DNA of 64,000 bases from an uncultured Methanosarcinales archaeon (GTDB lineage Archaea > Nanobdellota > Nanobdellia > Woesearchaeales > DSVV01), in assembly GCA_964453185.1 (NCBI GenBank), contig CAYVNN010000002.1, forward strand, positions 55,843-119,842, read 5' to 3'. A program made the position numbers and the translations under genes. Shown here piece by piece: positions 4,918-63,699 of this stretch. Below the pieces are notes generated by a model that had not been told where the DNA came from, did not search any database, and was given only the letters and a program-made list of their open reading frames with translations. The first letter of the stretch is position 1. Each line of letters starts with the position of its first letter.

Positions 4918-4959
4918 AAAAATAAGTTAACATCAATTGTTTAAAAAAGTTACTAAAAT

Positions 4960-5060
4960 AATGCCACCGCCTTGGCTCACTATTATAAATAATTTACAAT
5001 AGCGTCAGAATAAGATACGTACATAAAATAAATTTATAATGCCAGAGCCGCTGTGGCATT
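4960..5060. repeat. structured inverted-repeat element, copy A (ATAATGCCACCGCCTTGGCTCACTAT ... AATGCCAGAGCCGCTGTGGCATTAT)
   Basis: Terminal 10-bp stem ATAATGCCAC/GTGGCATTAT plus inner stem GGCTC/GAGCC. It shares the core with the copies at 17652, 23767, 28321, 43741 and 46133. It lies 3' of the minus-strand gene 5084..5956. Confidence 0.75.
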
Positions 5061-5083
5061 ATTAAAAAAATAAAATAAAAGAA

Positions 5084-12335: not shown

Positions 12336-14909
12336 ATGAAACATAGTATTTGGACAGAAAAATATAGACCTTCAACATTTGAAGAGATAAAAGGTCAAAA
12401 AGACGCAATTTCTAAGGTTAAAGCATTTGTTGAGCAAAAAAACATGCCGCACTTAATGTTTGCAGGTCCAGCTGGCGTTGGTAAAAGTACAACTGCTTTA
12501 GTTATAGCAAAACAATTATTTGGCAAAGAATGGAGAAATAATTTCCTTGAACTTAATGCATCTGACGAGAGAGGAATTGATGTAATCAGAGTAAAAGTTA
12601 AAGATTTTGCAAGGACAAGAGCCATAGGTGATGTACCATTTAAAATCATCTTCCTTGACGAGTGTTTAGATTATAATTCTAAAATTATTGTACAATCAAA
12701 CTATGGCATTGAAGAAGTTTCTATTGGTAATTTCGTTGAAAATTTTGATTTTCAAAATTATAAAATCATGTCTGTAGATGATAGTGGAGACATGATTTAT
12801 TCAAAAATTACCAAAACTATGAAGCTTCCTCATAATGCTAGTCATGGATACTACAAAATTAAAGTACATGATAAAGAAATAATTGTAACAGGAAATCATG
12901 AATTTTTATCAATTAATGGGTGGAAAAGAGCTGATGAGTTGAAGATAAAAGATCTAGTTCTATGCCCACAAAAAATTCCAATTATTAACAGAATCGAATC
13001 TAATAAACCATTGATATACAATTTAATAGGTTTACCACAGGAGATAAGAAAAAAAGAGAGATATTTACCACAGGAGATAAGAAAAAAAGAGAGATATCTT
13101 CCAAGATCACCTGAAAAACAAATTATTGAATTATTAGGAAAATATCCGGAAGGTTTAACTAGAGAAGAAATAACATTAAAAAGTAAAGTAAGTACTTCAA
13201 AAATAACTTCTATTTTAAGTGATAAAAACAATGTTTATTACATTCCACTAAGAAAACATAAGATCATTAAGAAAAATAAAGACAGATATATTTTAGGAGA
13301 TAATACAGGCAATTCCCTAGACAAGCTTTATAAAATTAAAAGGACACAAAATAATACAAATCAAGAATTCATCTTAACTCAACTTAAATCAAAAGAATTA
13401 TTTCCTATAAAAAGAGAAAATGCAATAATCTGTGCTAGGATTTTAGGGCACCTATTTAGTGATGGTTGTTTAACCCTTAAAAGTAAGCAACTATTTTTCT
13501 CTGGAAAAGAAGAGGATTTAAAAACTATAAAGAAAGATCTTAATAAATTAGGCTATTATTCATTAGGTAATATTAGACATTCAAAATGGAAAAAAGGTGA
13601 ATGTTGGTCTTTTGGAGCTTATAAACTAGAGTTATTAAGCTTATTTTACTCATTAGGTGCCCCAGTAGGAAAAAAGACAGACAATGTAGTAAGAATCCCT
13701 GAATGGATAATGGACAGTGACTTAACTATACAATCAGCATTCTTATCTGCCCTCTTTGGTGGAGATGGTTATGAACCAAAGTTCCAAGGGAGAACAGTCA
13801 AACAAATATTAATAGGAATCTCTAAGCGAGAAGATTTACAAAATAACCTAATTGAGTATCTGAAACAAATACAACAGTTACTTTCCAGATTTAATATAAC
13901 CTCAAGATATAGAATTTGTCCAGGTTATAAATCCACACGGAAAGACAATACAAATACTATTGAAGGCAGAATCTGGATTACTAATTCAATGGAAAATATT
14001 TATAAATTTCTAACTAAGATTGGATATTCATATTGCCAATATAAAGAAAAAACTACAAAAGATGTTATAAAATATTTGGATTGGAAAAAGAGTTTAGGAA
14101 AATTTATTTACACATTTAAACCAGTCCCTTATTTCTATGAATGGAGAGAAAATCTTATGCTTGGTGATTCTTCCTATCATTATGTAACATCTATTGAAAA
14201 AATTAAAGATCCAGATTTTGTATACTGTGTATCTACAGAATCTGGAAGATTTATAGCAAATAATATTGTAGTACATAATTGTGATGCTCTAACAAAAGAA
14301 GCACAACAAGCTCTGAGAAGAACAATGGAAAACTATACATTAACCACAAGATTTGTTTTATCATGTAATTATTCTTCAAAAATCATTGATCCAATCCAAA
14401 GTAGATGTGCAATGTTTAGATTTAAACGTCTACAACAAGATGAAATCATTGATTTAATCAATCATATTGCTACAGCAGAACAATTAAATATCGACGAGGA
14501 TGCAAAAAAAGCATTATACACAGTTTCTGAGGGAGATTGTAGAAAAGCAGAGAATATATTACAATGTTGTACTGCAATTAACAAACACATAACAAAAGAC
14601 CTAATATTTAGTATGGCATCTGTTGCAACACCAACAGAAATCAGAGAAATGCTAGAATTAGCTATTAATAATAAGTTTGTCGACGCTAGAAACAAATTAT
14701 TAGATACAATGTTAAAGTATGGTTTAAGTGGAATTGATATAATCAAACAAATAAACAGAGAAATCTGGAAACTAGATATCGACGACAAAATGAAAGTACA
14801 ACTCATCGACAAATGCGGAGAAACTGAATTCAGAATGACTGAAGGCAGTGATGAGTATTTACAACTTGAAGCATTATTAGCTAATTTTACTCTGTGTAGT
14901 TTGAAATAA
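12336..14909 (+). CDS. rfcS: replication factor C small subunit interrupted by an intein
   Basis: N-terminal EKYRPSTFEEIKGQ...FAGPAGVGKST Walker A, and IIFLDE|C...VVHN|CDALT Walker B split by the intein. C-terminal SRCAMFRFKRL sensor region. Confidence 0.9.
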   Translation: MKHSIWTEKYRPSTFEEIKGQKDAISKVKAFVEQKNMPHLMFAGPAGVGKSTTALVIAKQLFGKEWRNNFLELNASDERGIDVIRVKVKDFARTRAIGDVPFKIIFLDECLDYNSKIIVQSNYGIEEVSIGNFVENFDFQNYKIMSVDDSGDMIYSKITKTMKLPHNASHGYYKIKVHDKEIIVTGNHEFLSINGWKRADELKIKDLVLCPQKIPIINRIESNKPLIYNLIGLPQEIRKKERYLPQEIRKKERYLPRSPEKQIIELLGKYPEGLTREEITLKSKVSTSKITSILSDKNNVYYIPLRKHKIIKKNKDRYILGDNTGNSLDKLYKIKRTQNNTNQEFILTQLKSKELFPIKRENAIICARILGHLFSDGCLTLKSKQLFFSGKEEDLKTIKKDLNKLGYYSLGNIRHSKWKKGECWSFGAYKLELLSLFYSLGAPVGKKTDNVVRIPEWIMDSDLTIQSAFLSALFGGDGYEPKFQGRTVKQILIGISKREDLQNNLIEYLKQIQQLLSRFNITSRYRICPGYKSTRKDNTNTIEGRIWITNSMENIYKFLTKIGYSYCQYKEKTTKDVIKYLDWKKSLGKFIYTFKPVPYFYEWRENLMLGDSSYHYVTSIEKIKDPDFVYCVSTESGRFIANNIVVHNCDALTKEAQQALRRTMENYTLTTRFVLSCNYSSKIIDPIQSRCAMFRFKRLQQDEIIDLINHIATAEQLNIDEDAKKALYTVSEGDCRKAENILQCCTAINKHITKDLIFSMASVATPTEIREMLELAINNKFVDARNKLLDTMLKYGLSGIDIIKQINREIWKLDIDDKMKVQLIDKCGETEFRMTEGSDEYLQLEALLANFTLCSLK
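12663..14279 (+). other. intein (539 aa) with a LAGLIDADG homing endonuclease domain inside rfcS
   Basis: Begins with Cys at the DE|C junction and ends with HN, followed by Cys. Two LAGLIDADG-like motifs: ILGHLFSDGCL and LSALFGGDGY. Confidence 0.8.
13035..13100 (+). repeat. perfect tandem duplication (2 x 33 nt) inside the intein, encoding PQEIRKKERYL twice
   Basis: ccacaggagataagaaaaaaagagagatattta followed by ccacaggagataagaaaaaaagagagatatctt. Confidence 0.9.
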
Positions 14910-15711: not shown

Positions 15712-16023
15712 ATGATGTGTCCAATATGTAAAAAAGGAAAAATGAAAAAAAGAAAAGATGTAATTAAACAAGATGGGGTAGACTTTGAAGCATATAAATG
15801 TGTAAAATGTGGAGAAGAAATAATGACAGTGAAACAACTAAAGTCCTTAGCTAGTAAATATAGAAAATTGAGAACAGCAAAGGAAATAACATTCGCAAAA
15901 TGGGGAAATAGTATTGCTGTAAGAATACCAAGTGATATTGCTGAAGAATTTAATATTACCGTCGGAAAACATGGAATGTTAACAAAAGAGAAAGAAGGCT
16001 TTAAAATAACTCCAGCCATTTAA
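15712..16023 (+). CDS. zinc-ribbon (YgiT/MqsA-like) fused to a SpoVT/AbrB (MazE-like) DNA-binding domain; antitoxin-like regulator with no adjacent toxin
   Basis: N-terminal CPICKKG...CVKCGEE. C-terminal AKWGNSIAVRIPSDIAEEFNI is the AbrB/MazE swapped-hairpin signature. Confidence 0.5.
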   Translation: MMCPICKKGKMKKRKDVIKQDGVDFEAYKCVKCGEEIMTVKQLKSLASKYRKLRTAKEITFAKWGNSIAVRIPSDIAEEFNITVGKHGMLTKEKEGFKITPAI

Positions 16024-17570: not shown

Positions 17571-17651
17571 AATATATCCCTCCTTAATTATAAGTATATA
17601 CTTAATATACCTCTTTATATAATTTGTGGTAAAAATAACAATACTAGCATT

Positions 17652-17753
17652 AAAACCAGCGCCTTGAGTCACTATCTTATTTCTTCATAACTACGCACTA
17701 AAATATGTTGCGTTAATGAAAATTCCTCATAATGCCAGACTCGCTCTGGTTTT
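17652..17753. repeat. structured inverted-repeat element, copy B (CATTAAAACCAGCGCCTTGAGTCACTAT ... AATGCCAGACTCGCTCTGGTTTTAATG)
   Basis: The terminal stem is changed on both arms (AAAACCAG/CTGGTTTT) and the inner stem is changed on both arms (GAGTC/GACTC) relative to copy A. The core CGCCTTG..CACTAT / AATGCCAGA..CGC is retained. Confidence 0.75.
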
Positions 17754-17774
17754 AATGATTCATTATTGACTTTA

Positions 17775-20394: not shown

Positions 20395-23300
20395 TTACGA
20401 AGCCATTGAAGCAAACTGACCCAATGGTACATACTCAAATTGTACCTTTGTGTAATCAGGTAAAACAGTTCCTTCAACAGTATCTCTTTTTCTGACGTAA
20501 AATCCTTGTGAATCTTTTTCATCACACTGTCCCATTACATCATCATCTTCCCATTCAATTGTACAAAATTCTTTAAAATTACCCATATAATCTTTATAAT
20601 AAAGAAATATTTCATCATCTTCATACTTGGTCCAGATAAATCCAGTCCAAACTTCAACCTCATCTGCTCCTTCAATTAAATAATCTGAATTAATAACTGA
20701 ATATGCTAATATTTCATAATTAAAACTCATTAATTTCCCATCCTCTACCACAACATAATAACTAAATGCAGGATTATTATCAATATAAATCCATCTTTCA
20801 GAATATTCTTCTGATGTTGGAATTGTTCCTTCATAAACTGTTTCTGTTTGATTATTCGTGTAAATAAAAATCTTTAATTTCTTTGAATCATCAATACTAA
20901 TTATTAATTTAGTTCCTGATGTGTCTAAATCAATTGTTTCAGAAAAATCTTTTGTTTCACCATTAATTGTAAAACTTCCTTGTACTAAAAAGTTGTCCTC
21001 ATTTGTTTCTGATTTTAATTCTCCACTTTGCACAAGATTAAGCTCTTGAACTTTTTTATAATATGTTTCAACTAACTGAACATATAATCTAACCTGTTCA
21101 TAGTCGTCGTCATACTCACACCAATACCTTTTATCCCCTATACAATCTTGACTATCACAAAATACACCAACATATTCTCCATCTCTAATTCCACAAACAC
21201 CACCATAATATGTTGCTAACAAGTATTCTCTATTTAATTCAGGATCTTCTGAATCAAAAGGAATATTTTCATTATTTAATAAATCATACATTCTCCTTAC
21301 ACCAAACCTAATGTTTGTATCTGGATCAAATAAATCATAATCAACTATTCCCAATTCTGCAGCAATAACTGCAGCATCCTCTTCTGTTATCTGCATTAAT
21401 CCATTTGTTTCACCAAGAGGAGAAGATAATCCCACTGTTGTTGGATCATTCTTAGAACCTGCTGCAATCATTGCAATAACTAATTGTGGATCCATACCAT
21501 ACCTATCAGACCACTCTGAGATACTATTTGGACTTGAAGCATAATAAATAGTATAAATATCACTAACTAATTCATCTGGTTTTCCAGTATAAGATTCTTC
21601 TGATTTTGAATATGATGTTTCCGCATAACCTGCTGCAGTATCTGACTCAATCACCTTAACAGATGTGTCTTCAACAATTTTATAATCATACCTTGCTTTA
21701 ACAAAGAAATACTTTGTAGATATTGGTGTATTTCCTAATAGCTTATGTTCATCAACAATATCTAATCTACAATTGTATGAAACAAAATCTTCAATATCTT
21801 TGTAATGATTGGTGTTTCTTGAAGTGTCTAAATAATATGCATTATATCCATCTAACTCTTCTTGACATTTTAATAATAAGCATGCTCTCATTGTATCATC
21901 TGTAACTGCACCTTCATCTTCACATGCTCTATAGAAAGCAGTTTCATATTCTACATTACTACTTACACATCTATCCTCTGTATATTCTTTAAAATTAGTA
22001 TCTGAACAAGTATCAAGATCAAGTTCCATTGAATCTGGAATTATAACAACAATCTCTTTTATCTCTTCAATCATTCCATCCCAGTTTGTGTCAGCATCTA
22101 ATGTAATTCCTAATCTTGGTTTAACCTGATATGTTGAATCAATTCCTGTTAATGCACTATCTGGACCTATACCTAATCTAATTGGACCATTTGAATATCT
22201 TGCAACAGGATCTTTATCTTCCACTTGATACTGATCTAATAAATCAACACCATCTTTTAATGCAGAATTTAATCTATCTCTACTTGTAAAATATCTTTTA
22301 ACATAACCAATTGTTTCAAAATTAAACTTTGATTCAAATGTAACAGCATGTGAACCAGGACTTAATTTATTTTGAGGAATAGTACAATCAATTTCTTCCT
22401 GCTGCATATCATAAACTTCCATTGTTGCTGGATAAACTTCACCATAAACTTTACTTGTACCTTTTCCAGCATAACATGTTGTATTAATTTGCACCATATC
22501 ATCCAATGTTCTTGCCATTAATATTGCAAACACTGTAACTCTTTCATCTTCATAGAACTTTTCCTTTGAAGCCATAACATCTTCAATATAAACACCAAGC
22601 TGTTCTTCTTCATTCTCCTCAACCTGTCCAACATAATAGGTCGATGTGAGTTGTTTCTTTCTTATTTCCCAAATATCTCCAAACCTTGAAAATGCACCCC
22701 ATGTTGATGTAAATATTTGAGAACCACCTTCAACAAACTTATCCTTTAATACTAGAAATGCATCCCATCTTTCATAATCAGCTGTATCTAATTCTAAATC
22801 AGTAAAACCATACATTTGTCCCATACCATATGAAAGTATGATAAAGACCCACCACATAATAATTAAGAATCTTGATAACCTAATATACCATAACTTTGCT
22901 TCACTTCCTCTATAAACTGCATAGTAAATCCATGTTAACATAATAAATCCATTTGCTACAAACAAACGAATAAAATCAATAGATGCAATCATACTACTTG
23001 ATGCAACCATCCATGGAACAATAACCTCTATACAAAAACATACCAACATAATACGATACGTTTTTCCATTTCTCTCACTAGGATGAAAAATAAATAAGAT
23101 AGGCACAAGAATCATCCAAAATAAATTAAGAAAAATCCTATTTTTAATAGACAACCTTGATCCAATAACAACTGCATGATAAATACAAGCAAAAACAAAG
23201 AACCAAAATATACTAGAATTAGTTCTTCTTTCATCTTCATCTGCTCCACCTTTGAACAGATTAATGATTCCTTTACCACCATAATAAAAAGGAATAGATA

Positions 23301-23739
23301 AACCACGTGTAACAGCATTATGTGTTAAGAATTTACCAAAGCCTTTTGCTCTTTGCCATAATAAACTAGTTAATTGCTTTTTTCTATCTAACTCATCCAT
23401 TCCTTTAGCATGTCTTAATGCTTGAATCTTTGCAGTTAAATCAGAAAGATTAGCTTTATTTTCATTATGAGAATCTTTAAAATCTTTCCAAGGTTGTTGA
23501 AAAGTAGGCTTTACTGCATGTTCTTTCACATGAGGTAAGCCCAAATCTTTAGCCTTAGTCCAATTAGAATGAGCCATATCTACGGCTTCTGTTTTAGCAG
23601 CACCCCATGCCTTACCTGCTCCTGACTTAGTCTTACTCCAAGCAGCACTACTTACAGCTTTAGCTCCTGACTTAGTCTTACTCCAGGCAGCACTACCTAC
23701 AGCTTTAGCTCCTGCCTTAAATCCAGCCCATGATACCAT
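20395..23739 (-). CDS. giant (about 1114 aa) multi-TM protein with a large ectodomain containing an SLT-like (lytic transglycosylase) segment
   Basis: Start at the ATG at 23739 (MVSWAGFKAG), preceded by GAGGT. The longer ORF merely translates repeat copy C. Tandem AKAV(G/S)SAAWSKTKSG repeats are followed by about 6 TM helices. The ectodomain contains IAMIAAGSKNDPTTVGLSSPLGETNGLMQI, which resembles the SLT catalytic region but has Gly where the catalytic Glu is expected. Confidence 0.5.
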   Translation of the reverse strand: MVSWAGFKAGAKAVGSAAWSKTKSGAKAVSSAAWSKTKSGAGKAWGAAKTEAVDMAHSNWTKAKDLGLPHVKEHAVKPTFQQPWKDFKDSHNENKANLSDLTAKIQALRHAKGMDELDRKKQLTSLLWQRAKGFGKFLTHNAVTRGLSIPFYYGGKGIINLFKGGADEDERRTNSSIFWFFVFACIYHAVVIGSRLSIKNRIFLNLFWMILVPILFIFHPSERNGKTYRIMLVCFCIEVIVPWMVASSSMIASIDFIRLFVANGFIMLTWIYYAVYRGSEAKLWYIRLSRFLIIMWWVFIILSYGMGQMYGFTDLELDTADYERWDAFLVLKDKFVEGGSQIFTSTWGAFSRFGDIWEIRKKQLTSTYYVGQVEENEEEQLGVYIEDVMASKEKFYEDERVTVFAILMARTLDDMVQINTTCYAGKGTSKVYGEVYPATMEVYDMQQEEIDCTIPQNKLSPGSHAVTFESKFNFETIGYVKRYFTSRDRLNSALKDGVDLLDQYQVEDKDPVARYSNGPIRLGIGPDSALTGIDSTYQVKPRLGITLDADTNWDGMIEEIKEIVVIIPDSMELDLDTCSDTNFKEYTEDRCVSSNVEYETAFYRACEDEGAVTDDTMRACLLLKCQEELDGYNAYYLDTSRNTNHYKDIEDFVSYNCRLDIVDEHKLLGNTPISTKYFFVKARYDYKIVEDTSVKVIESDTAAGYAETSYSKSEESYTGKPDELVSDIYTIYYASSPNSISEWSDRYGMDPQLVIAMIAAGSKNDPTTVGLSSPLGETNGLMQITEEDAAVIAAELGIVDYDLFDPDTNIRFGVRRMYDLLNNENIPFDSEDPELNREYLLATYYGGVCGIRDGEYVGVFCDSQDCIGDKRYWCEYDDDYEQVRLYVQLVETYYKKVQELNLVQSGELKSETNEDNFLVQGSFTINGETKDFSETIDLDTSGTKLIISIDDSKKLKIFIYTNNQTETVYEGTIPTSEEYSERWIYIDNNPAFSYYVVVEDGKLMSFNYEILAYSVINSDYLIEGADEVEVWTGFIWTKYEDDEIFLYYKDYMGNFKEFCTIEWEDDDVMGQCDEKDSQGFYVRKRDTVEGTVLPDYTKVQFEYVPLGQFASMAS

Positions 23740-23766
23740 TATTAACCTCTTTTTTACAGCTATAAT

Positions 23767-23899
23767 AATGCCACCGCCTTGACTCACTATCTACTATATA
23801 GCGAAGGCGCTAAAAGTCTTTATACGTACAGCAGTGACTTAGTAGCATGCAATGCTACTACCTTCCCTCTACACATCGTGCCAGAGTCGCCGTGGCATT
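23767..23899. repeat. structured inverted-repeat element, copy C
   Basis: AATGCCACCGCCTTGACTCACTAT ... TGCCAGAGTCGCCGTGGCATT. Inner stem GACTC/GAGTC. The internal module TATAGCGAAGGCGCTAAAAGTCTTTATACGTACAG is shared with copy G. Confidence 0.75.
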
Positions 23900-24008
23900 A
23901 TTAACCTCTTTTTTAGTTTTACAACTACCTCAACTTAAATTCTAGAACTTCTTATATATAATATTTATGCATTTATGTATATAATAATTAAAACAAAAAA
24001 AGAAAATC

Positions 24009-27327: not shown

Positions 27328-27347
27328 ACATTGACATATACAATAGT

Positions 27348-27368
27348 ACCACCGCCTTGGCTCACCAT
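27348..27368. repeat. solo 5' half of the structured element (ACCACCGCCTTGGCTCACCAT), 21 nt after the pelA stop
   Basis: Matches the 5' core of copies A-G. No 3' partner within 100 nt. Confidence 0.6.
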
Positions 27369-27418
27369 TTACTTTACATACCATACTTTTATATATACTA
27401 ACTATTTACTTACTATTT

Positions 27419-28306: not shown

Positions 28307-28320
28307 TTCTCAAATACAAT

Positions 28321-28476
28321 AATGCCACCGCCTTGGCTCATTATCCTATCACAACATAGTATAGCGACAGGATATAGCAAAAGCAATTTTTGCTTTCTGC
28401 TTATTACGAAAAGCTTGCTTTGAGTATACGGTTTGTACATTATACATACACATTGAGTCAGAGCCGCAGTGGCATT
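28321..28476. repeat. structured inverted-repeat element, copy E (longest, 156 nt)
   Basis: AATGCCACCGCCTTGGCTCATTAT ... TCAGAGCCGCAGTGGCATTAT. Begins 15 nt after the stop of 27419..28306. Confidence 0.75.
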
Positions 28477-28565
28477 ATCTAGTTCTAACAATATATACAG
28501 TAATATACAAAAAACACACTTCTTCAGGGAAAACTTTAAAAATTAAAAAAAATTCAAGTATTCTA

Positions 28566-42652: not shown

Positions 42653-43738
42653 ATGAAAGGATTAGGTATAACAATCAAAGGTTTTGAAGAAATCAGCTCT
42701 AAAGAAGTCAAAGAATTGATCAAAACAGACTGTAAAATAGAAGAACATATTGTAATCTTTGAAACTAAACAAAAAGATCTTTGTAAATTAGCATACATGT
42801 CACAAAGTTTAATTAAAGTTATAGAATTATTAAAACAATTCAAAATAACAGATAATATAAAAGAAAAAGTTCAAAAAATTGATTGGAAGAAAATAATTAA
42901 AGACAAATCATTCAAAGTTAGATGTAAAAGACTTGGTAAACATGACTTTACAAGTCAAGAAATGCAAGGACAAATTGGCGAATATGTTTTAGACAAACAT
43001 AAAGCAAAAGTTTGCATGGATTCTCCTGATTTAATCATTTATTTATTCATAAACAATGAAAATTGTTATTTAGGTATTGATTATTGTGGATTTGATCTAA
43101 GTAAAAGAGATTATAAAATATTTAGTCATGCATGTTCACTAAATGGTGCAGTTGCATATGGATTAATAAAATATACAGGATACAATAAAAAAGGTTTTGT
43201 ACTTGATCCATTCTCAGGAATTGGAACAATACCTATTGAAACTGCATTCTTTTCATTAAACAAAAGCATTAATTTCTATAAAAAAGATAAATTTGCATTT
43301 AATAACTTTGTTGACATTGATTTATCTAAATTTGACAAAGAAAACAAACACAAAGATAAAATAATTGGTTATGATATATTATTAAGAAATATAGCAGCTT
43401 CAAAGAAAAATGCAAAGATTGGTGGTGTTAATAAAACAGTGGGTTTTTCTAGAATTGAAGTCGAATGGCTAGATACTAAATTTAAAGAACATGAGGTTGA
43501 TTTTATAATAACACATCCTCCAATTGATTCAAAAATAATTTCTGAAAAAGAAATTGAAAAAATATACAAAGAATTCTTTTACCAAGCAGACTATGTTCTC
43601 TCAAAAGGAGGAAGAATTGGAATATTATCAACAAAAGATAAACTCCTTAAGAAATGCACAGACAAATTTAAACTTGAAAAAGAAACAGAAGTAATGCAAG
43701 GCAAACAGAAGTTAAAGGTTTTAGTTTTTAAAAGATAA
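42653..43738 (+). CDS. THUMP-domain class I SAM-dependent tRNA (guanine-N2) methyltransferase (Trm14/TrmN-like)
   Basis: N-terminal ferredoxin-like/THUMP region, then the VLDPFSGIGTIPIE SAM-binding motif and a DPPY-like ITHPPID motif. Confidence 0.65.
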   Translation: MKGLGITIKGFEEISSKEVKELIKTDCKIEEHIVIFETKQKDLCKLAYMSQSLIKVIELLKQFKITDNIKEKVQKIDWKKIIKDKSFKVRCKRLGKHDFTSQEMQGQIGEYVLDKHKAKVCMDSPDLIIYLFINNENCYLGIDYCGFDLSKRDYKIFSHACSLNGAVAYGLIKYTGYNKKGFVLDPFSGIGTIPIETAFFSLNKSINFYKKDKFAFNNFVDIDLSKFDKENKHKDKIIGYDILLRNIAASKKNAKIGGVNKTVGFSRIEVEWLDTKFKEHEVDFIITHPPIDSKIISEKEIEKIYKEFFYQADYVLSKGGRIGILSTKDKLLKKCTDKFKLEKETEVMQGKQKLKVLVFKR

Positions 43739-43740
43739 TA

Positions 43741-43847
43741 TTAACACCACCACCTTGACTCTGTATTGGATAATCCACAAGATCGCACTAAAAGTCGCGT
43801 TGCGTTATTCTAACTTTACTAAGAGCTAGAGTCGCTGTTGGCGTTAA
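43741..43847. repeat. structured inverted-repeat element, copy F
   Basis: TTAACACCACCACCTTGACTCTGTAT ... CTAGAGTCGCTGTTGGCGTTAA. Begins 3 nt after the stop of 42653..43738. The terminal stem pairs better when read from the minus strand (G-U instead of A-C). Confidence 0.65.
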
Positions 43848-43859
43848 TTTAAAGAAATC

Positions 43860-46120: not shown

Positions 46121-46132
46121 GCAAATAATTTG

Positions 46133-46242
46133 GCATTTGTACTAGCACCTTGACTCACTATTAAATAATACAGCGAAAGCGCTAAAAGTCTTATACGTAC
46201 AGAAAAACATACATTGTATCAGAGTCGTCCTAGTACAAATGC
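46133..46242. repeat. structured inverted-repeat element, copy G
   Basis: GCATTTGTACTAGCACCTTGACTCACTAT ... TATCAGAGTCGTCCTAGTACAAATGC. The terminal stem is a perfect 13-bp helix with a sequence unrelated to the other copies. Begins 13 nt after the cyclase stop. Confidence 0.75.
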
Positions 46243-46325
46243 AATTTATAACCAAGGCAGCAGCATTACTACATTAGTAGATAATATAGGAAAAATTAAT
46301 AAACTTTGTATAATTATTTACATTA

Positions 46326-47351
46326 ATGAAGTTTAAATCAGACAAAGAATCAAAACCAATCAAACTTGATCTAAAAGATAAAAGAATTCTAAAATTACTT
46401 GACTTAAATTCTAAACAAAGTTATTCTGCAATTGCAAAAAAAGTTGGATTATCTAAAGAAAGTATTAGATATAGAATAAAACAACTAGAAGACAAAGGAG
46501 TAATACAAGGATACAGACTTGTAGTTGATATGCAGAAATTAGGATTCATTGTTAATCATATTTTTATGACACTAAGCAAACCAGACCTAAAGATTGAAGC
46601 AGATTACTTAGATAAACTAATCAAACTACCCTTTGTCAGAGCAATAATTAAATTTAATGGAGATTATGATTATGAAATTGCAATGGTTGCAAAGAATGTT
46701 GAAGAGATTGATAATAATCTAAACACATTACTTGAAGATGTAAGTCAATTCATAAAAAAACAAGAATTATTTATTGTTGTTAAATATTACGTAAAAAAAG
46801 GATTACCAAATAGTTTTTTACCAGAATCTCAAGCAGGATTTAAGAAAGTAACAAATGAGACGACAAAAGAACCAAATATTGATGAAAAAGATTTAAAGAT
46901 AATTGATGCAATGAAAGGACAAGCAAATAAACCAATCTATCAAATTGCAGAAGAAACAGGATATTCTTCAGAAGTTGTTTCTTACAGACTTAAAAAGATG
47001 GAAAAATCTGGCTTTATATCTAATTATACAATTGCACTTAATTATTATGCATTTAATTATCAAGTCTATGTAATATTACTTAATGTCCATAGTTTACATG
47101 GTGAAACTGAACAAAAACTAGCTAGTTTCTTAGAAAATGATAATAATGTTATTTGGGCAGTTAAAACAATTGGTAAATATAATGTTATTGCATATGTCTG
47201 CACAAAAAGCATTAATGAATTACATGAAACCATAGATAAAATAAGAAGAAACTTTGGAGATAACCTTCAAGATCACAAAACATTAATTGCTTATGAAAAC
47301 AATAAGTTTACTTATGTACCTGATGTTGCACTAAGTGAAGAAGCAGAGTAA
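46326..47351 (+). CDS. tandem (double) Lrp/AsnC-family transcriptional regulator
   Basis: Two HTH_AsnC-like segments (KDKRILKLLDLNSKQSYSAIAKKVGLSKESIRYRIKQLEDKGVIQGY and DLKIIDAMKGQANKPIYQIAEETGYSSEVVSYRLKKMEKSGFI), each followed by a RAM-like domain. Confidence 0.65.
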   Translation: MKFKSDKESKPIKLDLKDKRILKLLDLNSKQSYSAIAKKVGLSKESIRYRIKQLEDKGVIQGYRLVVDMQKLGFIVNHIFMTLSKPDLKIEADYLDKLIKLPFVRAIIKFNGDYDYEIAMVAKNVEEIDNNLNTLLEDVSQFIKKQELFIVVKYYVKKGLPNSFLPESQAGFKKVTNETTKEPNIDEKDLKIIDAMKGQANKPIYQIAEETGYSSEVVSYRLKKMEKSGFISNYTIALNYYAFNYQVYVILLNVHSLHGETEQKLASFLENDNNVIWAVKTIGKYNVIAYVCTKSINELHETIDKIRRNFGDNLQDHKTLIAYENNKFTYVPDVALSEEAE

Positions 47352-47358
47352 TCATTAT

Positions 47359-47379
47359 CACCACTGCCTTGGTTCATTA
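47359..47379. repeat. solo 5' half of the structured element (ACCACTGCCTTGGTTCATTAT), 8 nt after the Lrp gene stop
   Basis: Matches the 5' core with 2 substitutions; no 3' partner. Confidence 0.5.
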
Positions 47380-47421
47380 TTCCAAAAACTTTAAAAACCA
47401 GTAAACTAAGAATCTTATACA

Positions 47422-47786: not shown

Positions 47787-48111
47787 ATTGTAGGGAAGTA
47801 CTTAACTATCGGTGTAAACTGAGGAAAGTCCGTCCACCGTGAAAGACCAGTCTTGGAAGGGACATGGAGAAATTCATGGCAACCACTCAGAAACGAAACC
47901 ACTTGTACTGGGAATGATAGAGTGAAGCAAATGGCGACATTTGTTAGTATCCTCTTGACTATCTTTACAAGAAAGGATGAAACGGTGAGCCCTGGTTGGT
48001 GCAAGGCAGTAACTTTATGTTACATCAGTCCGCTAAGTTAAATGTTAAGGGGTCTGTTTGCATTCAAGGTGCATAGACTCAACAGAAGACGGCTTACCTC
48101 TTCTCTACAAT
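47787..48111 (+). ncRNA. rnpB: RNase P RNA (archaeal type A-like)
   Basis: GAGGAAAGTCCG (P4 5' strand / CR-I) near the 5' end and CAACAGAAGACGGCTTACC (CR-V / P4 3' strand) near the 3' end. P1 pairing of ATTGTAGGGAAG (47787-47798) with CTTCTCTACAAT (48100-48111). Length about 325 nt. Confidence 0.85.
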
Positions 48112-59045: not shown

Positions 59046-60800
59046 TTAACTAAAAAGACCAGATAACCACTCATAAATCTTTTCTAGCATTGAATTAGTT
59101 TCTTCAAGCTGTGATATTAGATCTTCACATTGTCCACTTAAACAAGAATTACTAACACATTCAAAACTATTTTGACATGCTTTTCCTTCTGTTTTTTGTT
59201 CAAGTAAATCTCCTGTCCAATCACAATACATAGGAACACCGCTTTCTAACATTCTTAGACCAACATCAACACAACTTCCCTCTAATTCACAAGTTCCATC
59301 TTCACAATCTTCCTCTTCTTCGACAATTACTTCAACCGGTTCTTCTACTATTTCCTCTTTCTCATCTTCTTCTTTGTTATAATCATCTTCTAAGTAATCA
59401 TCTGTTGCATCTTCCATGTCATCAACAATTTCATCATACTGTCCATCAATGTAATTGTAAAAGTCTTTTACTTCATCATATAATTCATCTGCTAATTCCT
59501 CTGCTTCATCAAATAATTCATCTTCAATATGATCCTCAGTGTCATCTAAAACATCCTCAATTAATTCACTGATATCTTCAAGATCTTGACCCAAATCACC
59601 AATATCTCTTTCAATATCTTCTGCATCATCTTCATCCATTTTATCTTCATAATAATCAAACAGTTCAAATATTTCTGCATAGACCTCTTCAGACTTTGAA
59701 TAAAAGTATTCTGCATCATCAATTCTATTGTAAATCTGTATTGTATCATAATCATCTAAAACAATAACAACTTCATCTTCTTCAACAATTTCCCCTTCTT
59801 CACAAACATAACCATCTCTTACACTATACAGAACAAATGCAACATAACCATCCTCATTACAATAATATTCACCTAAGTCCTCATCTGATCTACAGTAATC
59901 TTCATACTCTACCTCTTCACCATCATAATAATAAATTCCACTTGTTTCTCCTTTTTCATAATAATCTTCTCCATCATCACTTTCTGTACAAACAATCTCA
60001 GCTACTTCATCACTTTCAACAATTTCTCCGTCTACACAATCATAGCCCCCAACAGGAGTATAATAATGACGATCAACAAATCCATTATCATTACAATAAT
60101 ATTCACCTAACAACCCACCAGATGTACAAAAATCTTCATACTCTACTTCTTCATCAGTTGAATCATATATGCCCCTTGTCTTTCCTCTTTCATATATCTC
60201 TTTTCCACTATCTGAATCTGAACAAGTAATTATCTCAACTTCCTCACTAACAAACTCTCCATCTTCACAAACATAGCCTTCTGGTGGACTTACATAAATT
60301 ACATATAAGTAATCTCTACCGTCATGTTCCTTTATAAAAAATTCGCCTAGTTTTCCACTGCCACTACAATAATCTTGACTTTCTTGGTATAATCCTGTAA
60401 CATAATAAATTCCAGTGCCATATCCCGCAGTGTAATAATCCTTTCCACCATCTGAATCAAAAGGTTGTACATAATCATCATCAGATTCAACACATTCTCC
60501 TCCTTCACATTGGTATCCTTCACCACATTCTAATTCCACAATTTCTACATAACCATCTCCATTACAAAAGATTTCACCAACTAATTCTGTACCTACACAA
60601 TAATCTTCAAACTCTCCCCAATCCTCATTAGAAAACCAATTTCCTTCTGCATATCCTTTAGTATAGATATCTTCTCCATCAGTATCTGAACAAGTAATTG
60701 TTTCAACAACCTCATTAGCACTAACTGCCCCTGCAAACGCAGTCAAAACAACCAATGCAACAACAATATATAATATCAAATTTTTAAACTTCATTTTCAT
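59046..60800 (-). CDS. secreted protein with about 5 Cys-containing tandem modules and a highly acidic C-terminal half
   Basis: Signal peptide, repeated modules of the form C(S/T)(D/E)(S/T)D.GE(D/E)(I/Y)Y.KG......Y......E(V/F)E(Y/D)(E/Y)(D/C)(F/Y)C......GE(Y/I)(Y/F)CN..G(Y/F)V, then a D/E-rich region and a C-terminal Cys cluster. Confidence 0.5.
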   Translation of the reverse strand: MKMKFKNLILYIVVALVVLTAFAGAVSANEVVETITCSDTDGEDIYTKGYAEGNWFSNEDWGEFEDYCVGTELVGEIFCNGDGYVEIVELECGEGYQCEGGECVESDDDYVQPFDSDGGKDYYTAGYGTGIYYVTGLYQESQDYCSGSGKLGEFFIKEHDGRDYLYVIYVSPPEGYVCEDGEFVSEEVEIITCSDSDSGKEIYERGKTRGIYDSTDEEVEYEDFCTSGGLLGEYYCNDNGFVDRHYYTPVGGYDCVDGEIVESDEVAEIVCTESDDGEDYYEKGETSGIYYYDGEEVEYEDYCRSDEDLGEYYCNEDGYVAFVLYSVRDGYVCEEGEIVEEDEVVIVLDDYDTIQIYNRIDDAEYFYSKSEEVYAEIFELFDYYEDKMDEDDAEDIERDIGDLGQDLEDISELIEDVLDDTEDHIEDELFDEAEELADELYDEVKDFYNYIDGQYDEIVDDMEDATDDYLEDDYNKEEDEKEEIVEEPVEVIVEEEEDCEDGTCELEGSCVDVGLRMLESGVPMYCDWTGDLLEQKTEGKACQNSFECVSNSCLSGQCEDLISQLEETNSMLEKIYEWLSGLFS

Positions 60801-60938: not shown

Positions 60939-62801
60939 CTAGCTCTTCTTCTTATTAACATAATAAGCACCTACAGTCCCACAAAACAATAGCACAATAT
61001 AAACTAACAATATCCCTATATCACCATACTGTTGCAATAAACCAATATCAAAGAAGATTATCTTTCTAAAAATATTTTCACCTATTAACAAAGGATTTAG
61101 ATTAGCAAAGAATGCTGCAGTCTTCGGCATTATTTCAACGGGAAATATAACATCTGAAAACAAGAACACACCTAAAGCAAAGAATGTACATACTAATATT
61201 GATGTCTGCTTTATTCTAATTAAATATGCAAAGAACATACCTATCAAAACAAACACTGTTGTAACTAACAACACAGCTATCATTAAACTAAAGAACACAG
61301 ACATAATATCTATTCCAAAATTAAAATATGAAACTAACAACAAAACAGCTATCTGTATCAGTACAACAATCATATTAGTAATAAACAATCCAACGATATA
61401 ATACAAATTATTAATTGGAACTAAAAAATTTCTAAAAAAAGCAGGTGAATGAATTTCATTCAACACAACCATATTAGATAATAAAATACTAATAAACGTA
61501 ATAATAAACACTAACAAAATTGGAAATATCAAATAAATCTTAGCTAAGTCTCCTAATATAGGTTCAAACTCCGCATTTATTGGATTAATCAACATCTCTG
61601 CTTGATCTTGATCAATACCTGACAATTGTTCAATACTTTCATTTAATTCAATAGAAATCCTATCTATCTCAATAATTGCATCATCAATCTTAACAATATT
61701 TTCATTAATATTTTTGATACTATTATTAATTAAATCATTGACAGCATCAATATCAACAATCAATAAATCTAATTCTTCTTTCAACTCTTCAATATCATCA
61801 ATTGTTGAATCAATAAACATATTCGTATTATTAATCTTAGCAATTGCATCATTAGCTAATTCTTGTGAAGAATCTAATGAATCCAATGTTCTATCCAACA
61901 AACTATGATTTAATTTTATTTTATCTAAATCTATAGTCATTGGTAAACTTAAATTAAGAACATAAGATTTTAAGACATCAACAGCATCATTATACAAAAC
62001 AATAGTATCATTAATTTCAGTATACGAAGCATTAAGATAATAATAACTAGTATCTAATGATCCATTTAGTAAAGTCAATGCATTAACCATTTTTTCACTA
62101 TCTTCTTCAGAAAATGTCAATGCCTCTAATGTTTCAATACTATCATTAAGCTTACCTTGCAATTCTTTAATCTGTTCATACCTTGGATCAAATTGTTTCT
62201 TTACAGTTAAAAGCTGATCCCTCATTTCAACAAGATCAGATCTAACAATCATTGCTTCTGTCTTTAGTTCACCAAGTTGTTTTTGTGTATTAACCATCAA
62301 TCCAACAAACTCTTGAACATCATTAATTATCTGTTCACTTGCTTGCAAACTTATTTCTTCACTTGTAATATCTATTTTTTCTTTAAGATAATCAAGAATA
62401 AATCTAATTAAATTATATCTAGAATTATCATAATAAAATGTAATTGTTCCATCCATCTCTCCCGACGCTGGATCTGAGTTAAAATTTTCATCAAACTCTG
62501 CACAGAGATGCACAAAACTATGATTCATTGACCAAATACAAAAATCCAAACGTTTAAACATAACAACCCTAACTTCATCAGACGCAATATTTTCAAGAAC
62601 AGGTTGAATCTCTTGCATATCCTTTGCATAAACACCCATATTAATATCATGAAGATCATCACCATTAAAAGCAAAACCCAATATTAAGATGAGAATCATA
62701 GGTCCTAAGATTAATAATAAAATAGAAGTCCAGCTTCTAAAAACTATCTTAAGGTTTTTTAAAACTATAAATAATATTCTTCTGAAGCCGAATTTAGTCA
62801 T
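60939..62801 (-). CDS. ABC-2-type exporter permease with a large coiled-coil extracellular loop (YhgE/Pip-like)
   Basis: N-terminal TM, then a ~380-aa hydrophilic loop rich in heptad-like segments, then 5 C-terminal TM helices. Confidence 0.6.
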   Translation of the reverse strand: MTKFGFRRILFIVLKNLKIVFRSWTSILLLILGPMILILILGFAFNGDDLHDINMGVYAKDMQEIQPVLENIASDEVRVVMFKRLDFCIWSMNHSFVHLCAEFDENFNSDPASGEMDGTITFYYDNSRYNLIRFILDYLKEKIDITSEEISLQASEQIINDVQEFVGLMVNTQKQLGELKTEAMIVRSDLVEMRDQLLTVKKQFDPRYEQIKELQGKLNDSIETLEALTFSEEDSEKMVNALTLLNGSLDTSYYYLNASYTEINDTIVLYNDAVDVLKSYVLNLSLPMTIDLDKIKLNHSLLDRTLDSLDSSQELANDAIAKINNTNMFIDSTIDDIEELKEELDLLIVDIDAVNDLINNSIKNINENIVKIDDAIIEIDRISIELNESIEQLSGIDQDQAEMLINPINAEFEPILGDLAKIYLIFPILLVFIITFISILLSNMVVLNEIHSPAFFRNFLVPINNLYYIVGLFITNMIVVLIQIAVLLLVSYFNFGIDIMSVFFSLMIAVLLVTTVFVLIGMFFAYLIRIKQTSILVCTFFALGVFLFSDVIFPVEIMPKTAAFFANLNPLLIGENIFRKIIFFDIGLLQQYGDIGILLVYIVLLFCGTVGAYYVNKKKS

Positions 62802-62812
62802 TTAATCACCAA

Positions 62813-62931
62813 TTTATTTACTGCCTCTGCCTTAAGGTGAACAAAGCATTTGTCATGCTTGCACAATACGGTACCAAATTCCTTAGTTAAATTATAATGA
62901 ATTTGGTGTAGTGAACGGCATGGCAGTAAAT
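62813..62931. mobile_element. ~119-bp insertion with 10-bp terminal inverted repeats (ATTTACTGCC / GGCAGTAAAT) flanked by 15-20-bp direct repeats (TCATTTAATCACCAAYTTAT at 62798-62817 and 62932-62951)
   Basis: The direct repeat consists of the last 6 codons plus the stop of the ABC ATPase gene and the ATG of the permease (ATGA overlap). The inserted segment carries the internal palindromes CCTTAAGG, AAGCATTTGTCATGCTT and GGTACC. Confidence 0.6.
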
Positions 62932-63699
62932 TCATTTAATCACCAACTTATCATTCTTAACAATCTTTTCAAAAACTTTACCAAATGTTTTTTCTTTTGG
63001 ATATAATGAAGATAATTTATTTGGAGTATTAACTTTAATCATCCTACCAAAATTTAATATCCCAATTCTATTACAATGTTTCTCAATAAAATCTAATAAA
63101 TGTGATGTAACAATTATAGTTTTGCCAGACTTATTTATTTTAGTAATCAAATTCCATATATTATCTCTAATAATTGGATCTAAGCCAGTAGTTGGTTCAT
63201 CCAATATTAATATTTCAGGATCATGTATTAATGTTATAGCAAAGTCTAATCTTCTTTTCATACCACCAGAGATTCTACCTGACAAAGTATTTTGATGTCT
63301 TTCTAAATCAACAAGATTAAGAAGATATTTAACCTGTTTTGTTAATTTCTTTGGATTTAAACAATACAACCGTCCAAAATATTGTAAATTTTCTCTAATA
63401 GTAAGTTCAGGGTAAAAAGAATTCTCTTGCGTACAAAACCCAACAATATTTCTTATAATGTGTGGTTTTTTTGTAATATTATGGCCTTTATAGATTACTT
63501 TTCCTGAATCAACTTTATAAAAACCCATTAAAACCCTAAGTAAAGTAGTTTTCCCTGCACCACTCGTCCCAATAAAACCAAAGATCTCATTGTCATATAT
63601 CTTTAAATCAAGGTTTTTTATTACTTTTATCTCACCAAATCCTTTGTTAACCTTTTGAAAATCTATTAATTCCTTTGACATTATATAAATTATTAACAT
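62932..63699 (-). CDS. ABC transporter ATP-binding protein
   Basis: Walker A GTSGAGKTT, signature LSGGMKRRLDFA, Walker B ILILDEPTTGLD. Confidence 0.85.
   Translation of the reverse strand: MLIIYIMSKELIDFQKVNKGFGEIKVIKNLDLKIYDNEIFGFIGTSGAGKTTLLRVLMGFYKVDSGKVIYKGHNITKKPHIIRNIVGFCTQENSFYPELTIRENLQYFGRLYCLNPKKLTKQVKYLLNLVDLERHQNTLSGRISGGMKRRLDFAITLIHDPEILILDEPTTGLDPIIRDNIWNLITKINKSGKTIIVTSHLLDFIEKHCNRIGILNFGRMIKVNTPNKLSSLYPKEKTFGKVFEKIVKNDKLVIK

What the first reader, a model, noticed from the sequence alone, without database searches (positions are those of the whole stretch)
62798..62951. Small TIR-bearing insertion splitting an overlapping ABC ATPase/permease gene junction, with 20-bp target duplication of the gene end
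The ATPase gene ends ...AAT GAT AAG TTG GTG ATT AAA TGA. Nineteen of those nucleotides plus the stop (ATAARTTGGTGATTAAATGA) occur again 119 nt downstream, where the embedded ATGA provides the permease start codon. The intervening 119 nt begin ATTTACTGCC and end GGCAGTAAAT, perfect 10-bp terminal inverted repeats. The simplest reading is that the ancestral locus had the classic ATGA stop/start overlap and a small foldback or MITE-like element inserted with a long direct duplication. The only difference between the two repeats is a synonymous AAG/AAA change. The element's 5' region (S1-T-CTGCC-TT-...) and 3' region (...GGCA-T-S1') echo the architecture of the main repeat family.
Basis: seen in the sequence. 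Interest (0 to 1): 0.7.

Follow-up and report, generated by a model that had tools for sequence, protein, structure and literature searches.

The report
Hairpin insertion splitting an archaeal transporter operon
A 114-base hairpin-forming piece of DNA, flanked by a 20-base duplication, has landed exactly in the stop/start overlap of two ABC-transporter genes of an uncultivated DPANN archaeon and is now read as a 45-codon bridging mini-gene; it is a neat single-copy curiosity, not yet a proven mobile-element family.

Summary
On the minus strand an ABC ATPase (62932-63699) and an ABC-2 permease (60939-62801) are separated by a 20-nt direct repeat (19/20 identical), 114 nt of spacer and perfect 10-bp terminal inverted repeats.

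Four related Woesearchaeota-type loci with the same gene order have no spacer. Their two genes overlap by 4, 4, 7 and 14 nt, and two overlaps are ATGA. The segment is therefore a lineage-specific insertion into an ancestral overlap.

- The repeat is the Shine-Dalgarno site plus start (GGTGAT-TAA-ATGA).
- The insert is one open 45-codon ORF that starts in the first ATGA and stops in the second.
- The RNA folds much better than shuffled sequence (z about -3.4).

The ORF has no homologue and atypical codon usage.

I found no second copy in the window, in about 18 kb of extra host DNA, or in the GTDB, JGI, IMG/VR, phage and plasmid collections. None of those collections holds the host contig. No cognate transposase was seen, and no empty allele was found in JGI metagenome contigs. 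A covariance model of the window's main repeat family scores the insert at background (13.6 bits, E about 1).

Best reading: a solitary MITE-like foldback insertion with a 20-nt target duplication, tolerated because both genes keep intact starts. One family copy (23757-23895) has a similar 20-nt duplication that ends at a start codon. This is unexplained.

The parts
62932..63699 (-). ABC transporter ATPase gene (255 aa as longest ORF), ending ...KNDKLVIK-TGA
   Evidence: ORF list. Pfam ABC_tran, E 1.8e-31.
62932..62951 (-). Upstream copy of the 20-nt direct repeat, ATAAGTTGGTGATTAAATGA. It holds the ATPase C-terminal codons, the SD GGTGAT, the ATG of ORF45 and the ATPase TGA.
   Evidence: GGTGATNNNATG is enriched in the window: 4 observed against 0.55 expected.
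62818..62931 (-). The 114-nt inserted segment between the two repeat copies (38% GC). It folds as a terminal stem plus two internal hairpins.
   Evidence: It is absent from the four related loci.
62922..62931 (-). Left terminal inverted-repeat arm, ATTTACTGCC
   Evidence: Pairing probability about 0.99 in the mRNA ensemble.
62816..62825 (-). Right terminal inverted-repeat arm, GGCAGTAAAT. Its last 2 nt overlap the downstream direct repeat.
62873..62907 (-). Internal hairpin 1 (ACCAAATTC...GAATTTGGT)
   Evidence: Inverted repeat I3, 13 nt, 92% complementary. Present in the MFE and centroid folds.
62844..62860 (-). Internal hairpin 2 (AAGCAT-GACAA-ATGCTT)
   Evidence: MFE fold.
62798..62935 (-). 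ORF45: MNLLPCRSLHQIHYNLTKEFGTVLCKHDKCFVHLKAEAVNKLVIK. It starts in the ATGA at the ATPase stop and stops in the ATGA at the permease start.
   Evidence: Called as a gene on Logan contig L005. No homologue and no Pfam match. Codon usage is atypical.
62798..62817 (-). Downstream copy of the 20-nt direct repeat, ATAAATTGGTGATTAAATGA. It holds the ORF45 C-terminal codons, the SD GGTGAT, the permease ATG and the ORF45 TGA.
60939..62801 (-). ABC-2 type permease gene (620 aa). Its N-terminus MTKFGFRRILF... matches relatives directly after the repeat.
   Evidence: Pfam ABC2_membrane. The L014 N-terminus is MTKYGFRRILF.

Best explanation
A short foldback (MITE-like) DNA segment of 114 nt inserted into the ATGA stop/start overlap of an ABC-2 transporter operon in one lineage of Woesearchaeota-like DPANN archaea. 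The insertion duplicated the 20 nt that end at that ATGA, as a staggered cut followed by fill-in would (inferred). The duplicated 20 nt are the ATPase C-terminal codons plus the Shine-Dalgarno site, the start and the stop. As a result the ATPase keeps its end and the permease keeps a complete initiation region (shown from sequence). The upstream copy gives the insert its own SD and ATG. The insert happens to be open in that frame, so it is read as a 45-codon ORF that ends in the second ATGA. Ribosomes that leave the ATPase gene can therefore translate through the hairpin, melt it, and terminate on the permease start. This would preserve translational coupling (inferred, not tested). The element is most likely a tolerated passenger, not a functional gene. 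It is single-copy in all sequence I could examine, and no partner transposase was identified.
For: Insertion: four related loci with the same gene order lack the spacer and overlap by 4, 4, 7 and 14 nt. The permease N-terminus aligns with relatives immediately after the downstream repeat. Target duplication: 19/20 identity over exactly 20 nt, with a 114-nt spacer that matches nothing in the window. Foldback: a perfect 10-bp plus a 4-bp terminal stem, z = -3.4 (RNA) and -3.6 (DNA), and stem pairing probability about 0.99. Not a tandem copy of the ATPase 3' end: protein similarity p = 0.36 and nucleotide p = 0.09. The ORF looks accidental or recent: no homologue among 5.8 billion clusters or 1.8 billion representatives; codon log-odds -0.23 per codon against 0.42 +/- 0.17 for host genes, lower than all 5000 sampled host segments; an open frame is expected in 7.5-21% of random inserts. 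Coupling logic: both SDs are predicted to be about 72-74% paired in the free mRNA. The element is fixed and invariant in every host contig that spans it. The kind is known: prokaryotic MITEs and Rickettsia palindromic elements carry ORFs and insert in translatable ways (PMC10969869).
Against: MITEs are multicopy by definition, and no second copy was found. The window has none, nor does about 18 kb of extra host DNA. In GTDB species representatives, JGI metagenome contigs and IMG/VR, the only matches to the inverted-repeat pair have unrelated interiors and are consistent with chance. Phage and plasmid collections gave no match. A 20-nt target duplication is far longer than usual for MITEs. The only transposase seen near the window (L093 14399-15268, DDE IS240/rve_3) has candidate terminal repeats unlike ATTTACTGCC. 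No empty allele was found in JGI metagenome contigs. The nearest empty sites are in lineages only 50-56% identical in the permease, so the age of the event is unknown. No expression data exist, so coupling through ORF45 is only inferred.
Confidence: 0.55

Rival explanations
1. A one-off, non-transposon insertion. A hairpin-forming fragment, copied from elsewhere or foreign, was captured during break repair or replication template switching at the junction. The 20-nt repeat comes from fill-in or microhomology-mediated synthesis, not from a transposase.
For: The element is single-copy everywhere I could look. No matching transposase ends were found. The 20-nt duplication is atypical for insertion-sequence or MITE transposition.
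Against: Perfect 10-bp inverted repeats sit exactly at the insert boundaries, which is what transposon ends look like. No donor sequence was found in about 82 kb of host DNA. A second element in the window (copy B) also carries an exact 20-nt flanking repeat, which suggests a defined mechanism and not an accident.
Confidence: 0.15
2. The insert is kept because its RNA structure is useful. It would act as an intercistronic hairpin that sets the ATPase-to-permease ratio through mRNA stability, processing or occlusion of the permease SD, like REP/ERIC-type elements inside operons.
For: The fold is strong and well defined (z = -3.4). Both SD sites are predicted to be mostly paired. The sequence is invariant in all host contigs.
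Against: No Rfam family matches. No homologous element is available to test covariation. Relatives manage without it. Invariance within one clonal population says nothing about selection.
Confidence: 0.1
3. ORF45 is a real, newly acquired small protein, possibly metal-binding with 3 Cys and 4 His, that works with the transporter. The DNA features are secondary.
For: The frame is open across the whole insert with a strong SD and ATGA coupling at both ends. Seven Cys/His in 45 residues, P = 3e-4 against host composition. One pipeline called it as a gene.
Against: No homologue at all: the two weak hits are repeat proteins matched by summed stretches. No Pfam match. Codon usage falls outside the host range. 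An open frame arises by chance in 7.5-21% of cases, and all three frames of the repeat stop within 17 nt of the permease start (and sequence). The Cys/His codons (TGC, CAC, CAT) sit largely in the stems that make the hairpins.
Confidence: 0.08
4. The insert is a decayed member, in opposite orientation, of the window's main structured repeat family (terminal stem, small internal loop, GC-rich second stem).
For: The architecture is similar. Short shared strings lie next to the stems (GCC.UG.C..UCACUA and CAC.U.A.G.CAGAG.C). In a targeted 451-nt search with filters off it scores 13.6 bits, E 0.007. Family copy B has an exact 20-nt flanking repeat that ends at a start codon.
Against: Over the whole window the same hit has E about 1, and four unrelated regions score higher. 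True members score 63-139 bits, and even their wrong strands score 15-32. nhmmer finds nothing at E up to 100. MAFFT does not align it with the family. The inner family stem is broken in the model alignment.
Confidence: 0.07

Closest known systems
Prokaryotic MITEs found inside operons (Correia/CREE of Neisseria, ERIC/IRU of enterobacteria, RUP/BOX of pneumococci; archaeal MITEs of Sulfolobus and haloarchaea)
   Same: Small (about 100-150 bp) with no transposase gene. Terminal inverted repeats and flanking direct repeats. Co-transcribed with neighbouring genes and folding into a stable RNA hairpin. May carry short ORFs (PMC10969869; family details from my own knowledge).
   Different: Those families are multicopy and have short target duplications, commonly 2-10 bp (my own knowledge). 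Here one copy is known, the duplication is 20 nt, and no partner insertion sequence is known.
Rickettsia palindromic elements (RPEs)
   Same: Palindromic inserts of about 100-150 bp that survive in coding regions because they remain translatable.
   Different: RPEs insert inside ORFs as in-frame fusions. They form families with a conserved peptide and dozens of copies. The insert here makes a separate mini-ORF between two genes and has no relatives.
Integration signature of casposons (Cas1-solo transposons of archaea and bacteria)
   Same: Archaeal host. Unusually long target duplications (1-27 nt, median 15). Terminal inverted repeats that may overlap the duplication (PMC4046053). Here the right arm overlaps the repeat by 2 nt.
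   Different: Casposons are multi-gene elements that encode Cas1 and PolB, with inverted repeats of 25-602 nt. No Cas1 gene was looked for beyond the loci fetched. I know of no miniature casposon derivative. This is a lead from resemblance only.
The window's own structured repeat family (4950-5071, 17641-17764, 23757-23910, 28311-28487, 43733-43856, 46127-46249, all on the plus strand)
   Same: Terminal stem, small internal loop, then a GC-rich inner stem. Size 120-175 nt. One copy (B) has an exact 20-nt flanking repeat that contains an SD and ATG.
   Different: The insert scores at background with the family model. It lacks the conserved motifs CGCCTTGRSTCACTAT and GCRCTAAAAGTC. Its weak match lies on the other strand.

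Membership tests
MITE (miniature inverted-repeat transposable element) | Small size with no transposase gene | tested here: met
   The insert is 114 nt. Its only ORF is 45 codons and has no family match.
MITE (miniature inverted-repeat transposable element) | Terminal inverted repeats at the element boundaries | tested here: met
   Perfect 10-bp repeat ATTTACTGCC/GGCAGTAAAT at both ends, unique in the window.
MITE (miniature inverted-repeat transposable element) | Flanking target-site duplication | tested here: met
   A 20-nt direct repeat, 19/20 identical. The length is atypical.
MITE (miniature inverted-repeat transposable element) | Several copies per genome, at different sites | tested here: not met
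   No second copy in the 64-kb window or in about 18 kb of added host DNA. Most of the host genome could not be read. The public scans do not contain the host contig.
MITE (miniature inverted-repeat transposable element) | Terminal repeats shared with an autonomous insertion sequence that could mobilise it | tested here: inconclusive
   The only transposase seen (L093 14399-15268, DDE IS240/rve_3) has candidate terminal repeats unlike those of the insert. Other insertion sequences of the genome are unknown.
MITE (miniature inverted-repeat transposable element) | Presence/absence polymorphism (empty sites) | tested here: met
   Empty sites occur in four related lineages. No empty allele was found in JGI metagenome contigs, and every host contig that spans the site is filled.
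Window's structured repeat family (model R2) | Score with the family covariance model comparable to members, and conserved inner motifs | tested here: not met
   13.6 bits and E about 1 over the window, against 63-139 bits for members. nhmmer gives no hit.
Casposon-type (Cas1) integration | Cas1-solo integrase in the genome, and a target duplication made by it | not tested
   Only the long duplication and its overlap with the inverted repeat resemble casposons. No search for Cas1 was made.
Conserved small protein gene | Homologues in other genomes and host-like coding statistics | tested here: not met
   No true homologue. Codon log-odds lie below all 5000 sampled host gene segments.
Known RNA family (Rfam 15) | Match at or near a family's gathering score | tested here: not met
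   Best hits are 12.7-19.4 bits against gathering scores of 50-90. At gathering scores the window matches only RNase P RNA.
Archaeal bulge-helix-bulge intron | Two 3-nt bulges on opposite strands separated by a 4-bp helix | tested here: not met
   In the predicted fold the 4-bp helix UGCC/GGCA is bordered by a 1x2 internal loop on its outer side and a multiloop on its inner side. This was judged by inspection only.

The most novel reading that the evidence does not exclude
The insert and family copy B may both be products of one unrecognised archaeal integration mechanism. It would place hairpin elements immediately after a start codon and duplicate exactly the 20 nt upstream (SD plus ATG), so the host gene always keeps a full initiation region. 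Such an integrase would make fixed 20-nt staggered cuts and be guided to translation-initiation regions. It might be casposase-like, or something new in DPANN archaea.
Probability: 0.1. Interest if true: 0.7.

Novelty: new member of a known kind. Interest (0 to 1): 0.33.

Why it matters
DPANN archaea have tiny, gene-dense genomes in which many genes overlap, so almost any insertion should be harmful. This locus shows how one can be tolerated. The target duplication regenerates the ribosome-binding site, the start and the stop on both sides, and the insert becomes a bridging mini-ORF. If more copies exist, this would be a new archaeal MITE-like family with an unusually long 20-nt duplication. 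It would also be a natural example of de novo ORF birth from selfish DNA. If it stays single-copy, it is a well-documented curiosity.

Tried and rejected
- **Tandem duplication of the ATPase 3' end.** An apparent Y..KEFG..V..K..DK resemblance between ORF45 and the ATPase tail is not significant: p = 0.36 for protein and 0.09 for nucleotides.
- **Homologues of ORF45.** The word-indexed search found only the ORF itself. The exhaustive HMMER search gave two hits that are unrelated repeat proteins. Pfam gave nothing.
- **Rfam.** Nothing at gathering scores and only noise at E up to 10.
- **Other copies by inverted-repeat pattern** (ATTTACTGCC-N81-111-GGCAGTAAAT). There were 15 hits in GTDB representatives, 54 in JGI metagenome contigs and 3 in IMG/VR. 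Every GTDB and JGI hit has an unrelated interior; the three IMG/VR hits differ in length and were not examined. These collections do not contain the host contig.
- **Interior 21- and 23-mers in IMG/VR, and blastn against phages and plasmids.** No match.
- **Empty allele of the same species.** The exact-pattern scan of JGI metagenome contigs gave 0 hits.
- **Polymorphism inside the insert.** Two Logan contigs end 101 nt into it. The adjoining contig overlaps by 27 nt with the same sequence, so this is an assembly gap.
- **Membership in the main repeat family.** Rejected by MAFFT, two covariance models and nhmmer.
- **Bulge-helix-bulge intron.** The geometry does not fit (inspection).
- **Neighbouring DDE transposase as partner.** Its terminal repeats do not match.
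- **Further repeat-flanked events.** None in relatives or in the extended host loci.
Full report
**What is in the sequence.**
- The window is AT-rich (about 30% GC). It carries an archaeal RNase P RNA, and its proteins are closest to Woesearchaeota/Nanoarchaeota MAGs.
- The finding lies on the minus strand. An ABC ATPase gene (62932-63699) ends ...AAT GAT AAG TTG GTG ATT AAA TGA. An ABC-2 permease gene (60939-62801) starts 134 nt further on.
- The 20-mer ATAAGTTGGTGATTAAATGA (62951-62932) recurs as ATAAATTGGTGATTAAATGA (62817-62798), 19/20 identical. Chance expectation is 0.11 matches even with 3 mismatches allowed.
- Between the copies lie 114 nt, not 119. This stretch begins ATTTACTGCC. The stretch ending GGCAGTAAAT runs 2 nt into the second repeat. 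This perfect 10-bp inverted pair is the only exact one in the window.
- A second 4-bp stem (UGCC/GGCA) and two internal hairpins follow.
- The region folds far better than shuffles, both as RNA (z = -3.38) and as DNA (z = -3.61).
- The sequence is identical in every contig of this population that spans it, from JGI, ENA and Logan assemblies. It is therefore real and fixed in this population.

- The 20-mer is a translation-initiation region. It holds GGTGAT (complementary to the usual archaeal 16S 3' end, from my own knowledge), a 3-nt spacer and ATGA. GGTGATNNNATG occurs 4 times in the window against 0.55 expected.
- The whole spacer is one ORF of 45 codons (62798-62935). Its ATG overlaps the ATPase TGA and its TGA overlaps the permease ATG. 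The operon now has two consecutive ATGA junctions.
- ORF45 ends ...NKLVIK, as the ATPase ends ...DKLVIK, simply because both read the repeat in the same frame.

**Is it an insertion?** Yes.
- The permease has homologues at 56, 52, 51 and 50% identity and nothing closer.
- I fetched their contigs. All keep the local gene order (tRNA synthetase and/or cation-efflux gene, then ATPase, then permease).
- In all four the two genes overlap with no spacer:
  - L014...aaaagaaaATGAcaaaatacggc, an ATGA overlap. The gene caller had chosen a later ATG, but the upstream reading gives MTKYGFRRILF, matching MTKFGFRRILF here.
  - L012: ATGA.
  - L009: 7-nt overlap.
  - L013: 14-nt overlap.
- The ancestral state was an overlap, and the 134 nt (114 plus the 20 duplicated) are lineage-specific.
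- These relatives are distant, so the insertion cannot be dated. The near-identity of the repeat includes 7 nt outside the SD, which argues against great age (inference).

**What it is not.**
- It is not a diverged tandem copy of the ATPase 3' end. A tempting FG..V..K..DK resemblance is at chance level (p = 0.36 protein, 0.09 nucleotide).
- It matches no Rfam family.
- ORF45 has no homologue. The indexed search returns only the ORF itself. The exhaustive search adds two repeat proteins matched through summed stretches. Pfam is empty.
- Its codon usage (-0.23 log-odds per codon) is lower than all 5000 sampled 45-codon segments of host genes (0.42 +/- 0.17).
- Its Cys/His richness (7 of 45, P = 3e-4) coincides with the GC-rich stem sequences.
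- An open frame across a random insert is expected in 7.5% (shuffles) to 21% (random genomic 114-mers) of cases.
- All three frames of the 20-mer contain a stop within 17 nt of the permease ATG. Any open frame would therefore end next to that start. The ORF needs no selection for a protein product.

**Is it a mobile-element family?** Unproven.
- No other copy of the insert or its inverted-repeat pair exists in the window.
- None exists in about 18 kb of additional host sequence beyond both window ends.
- The pattern ATTTACTGCC-N(81-111)-GGCAGTAAAT gave 15 hits in 185,579 species-representative genomes and 54 in JGI metagenome contigs. The GTDB hits are all bacterial, and every interior in both sets is unrelated. 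The GTDB count is in line with my own rough by-hand estimate of about 20-35 chance matches.
- IMG/VR, phage and plasmid collections gave nothing related.
- The host contig itself is absent from those collections, so these scans say nothing about the rest of the host genome.
- A scan for a same-species empty allele found none.
- Two Logan contigs break inside the insert, but the adjoining contig overlaps with identical sequence, so this is an assembly gap.
- A DDE transposase (IS240/rve_3 with an InsA-type zinc ribbon) lies about 2 kb beyond the left window edge. Its candidate terminal repeats are unlike those of the insert.

**Relation to the 'main repeat family'.**
- The repeats AATAATGCCACCGCCTTGGCTCA ... 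CAGAGCCGCTGTGGCATTATT proved to be a structured family.
- A covariance model built from three copies finds six full members and one or two partial ones, all on the plus strand.
- Members have different outer-stem sequences that still pair. Of the 18 stem pairs, 11 show changes on both sides, 97% of cells are paired, and 0 of 500 shuffles reach this.
- The insert is not a member:
  - The improved model gives it 13.6 bits on the minus strand.
  - That is E 0.007 in a targeted 451-nt search but E about 1 across the window, where four unrelated regions score higher. Members score 63-139 bits.
  - nhmmer and MAFFT show nothing.

**One parallel remains unexplained.**
- A scan for close direct repeats gives only two cases that are not tandem or internal repeats inside genes.
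- The second case is family copy B. It is flanked by an exact 20-nt repeat (23737-23756 and 23896-23915), which on the minus strand reads TAAAAAAGAGGTTAATAATG.
- That repeat also contains an SD. It ends exactly at the first in-frame ATG of the downstream gene.
- So two hairpin elements each carry a 20-nt duplication that ends at or one base past a start codon. Other family copies lack such repeats, and none occur in the related loci.

**How it most likely works.**
- Shown: there is an insertion into an ancestral overlap, a 20-nt duplication that leaves both genes complete, a strong foldback, and an ORF that bridges the two ATGA junctions.
- Inferred: a staggered 20-nt cut with fill-in produced the duplication.
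- Inferred: in the free mRNA the terminal stem is essentially always formed, and both SD sites are about 72-74% paired.
- Inferred: a ribosome that terminates at the ATPase stop can reinitiate on the overlapping ATG, translate the 45 codons, unfold the hairpin and terminate on the permease start. Coupling would then survive the insertion.
- I consider the element a tolerated passenger. Long duplications with overlap between inverted repeat and duplication are described for casposons (1-27 nt, median 15; PMC4046053). Translatable palindromic inserts are known from Rickettsia RPEs and other MITEs (PMC10969869). These are resemblances, not tested memberships.

**Verdict.** This is a new, so far solitary, member of a known kind, the MITE-like foldback insertion. 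Its two unusual traits are the 20-nt duplication of a translation-initiation region and the bridging ORF. Interest is modest unless the full genome reveals more copies or the 20-nt start-codon pattern proves general.

Noticed in passing
window 4950-5071, 17641-17764, 23757-23910, 28311-28487, 43733-43856, 46127-46249 (all + strand); partial copies at 27335-27396 and perhaps 47346-47405: A structured repeat family of 120-175 nt. Each member has a terminal stem of about 18-20 bp whose outer part differs in sequence between copies but stays paired: 11 of 18 pairs change on both sides and 97% of cells are paired. Conserved motifs are CGCCTTGRSTCACTAT, GCRCTAAAAGTC and CAGASYCGC. No G-U or one-sided changes occur in 108 cells, and every copy is on the same strand. 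There is no Rfam match and no copy in the related loci fetched. It could be an unknown RNA gene family or a single-strand DNA hairpin element.
   Followed up: partly
window 23737-23756 and 23896-23915: An exact 20-nt direct repeat flanks family copy B. On the minus strand it reads TAAAAAAGAGGTTAATAATG. It holds the SD and ends at the first in-frame ATG (23739-23737) of the large gene 20395-23739. This has the same length and the same relation to a start codon as the repeat in the finding.
   Followed up: partly
L093 14399-15785 (host contig, about 2-3 kb beyond the left edge of the window): A DDE transposase (Pfam DDE_Tnp_IS240, rve_3, with an InsA-type zinc ribbon) overlaps a 174-aa PolB-exonuclease-like/RNase_H_2 gene. 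A 20-bp palindrome lies at 15865-15905. The element borders were not determined.
   Followed up: partly
window 47790-48108 (+): Archaeal RNase P RNA, 127.6 bits. It is the only Rfam match at gathering score. ARAGORN finds no tRNA gene in the whole 64 kb.
   Followed up: no
window about 63737 (38 nt upstream of the ATPase ORF start): Four independent contigs (L003, L004, L005, L008) from different samples all begin at this same position, at the start of the divergent cation-efflux gene. Some relatives lack that gene next to the ATPase. This may reflect strain-level rearrangement.
   Followed up: no
window 59046-60800 (-): A 584-aa, very acidic, Cys-containing protein with internal repeats of about 78 aa (DNA repeats spaced 231-240 nt). 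Its length varies between assemblies (544-584 aa called), which suggests repeat-number variation.
   Followed up: no
window 13031-13096 and 23618-23707: A perfect 33-nt tandem duplication (TTTACCACAGGAGATAAGAAAAAAAGAGAGATA x2). A 45-nt tandem repeat (96% identical) lies inside the 5' part of the large gene downstream of copy B.
   Followed up: no
L094 1-304 (host contig, upstream region within window coordinates): A replication factor C-like gene annotated with an intein and a LAGLIDADG homing-endonuclease domain (Pfam list).
   Followed up: no
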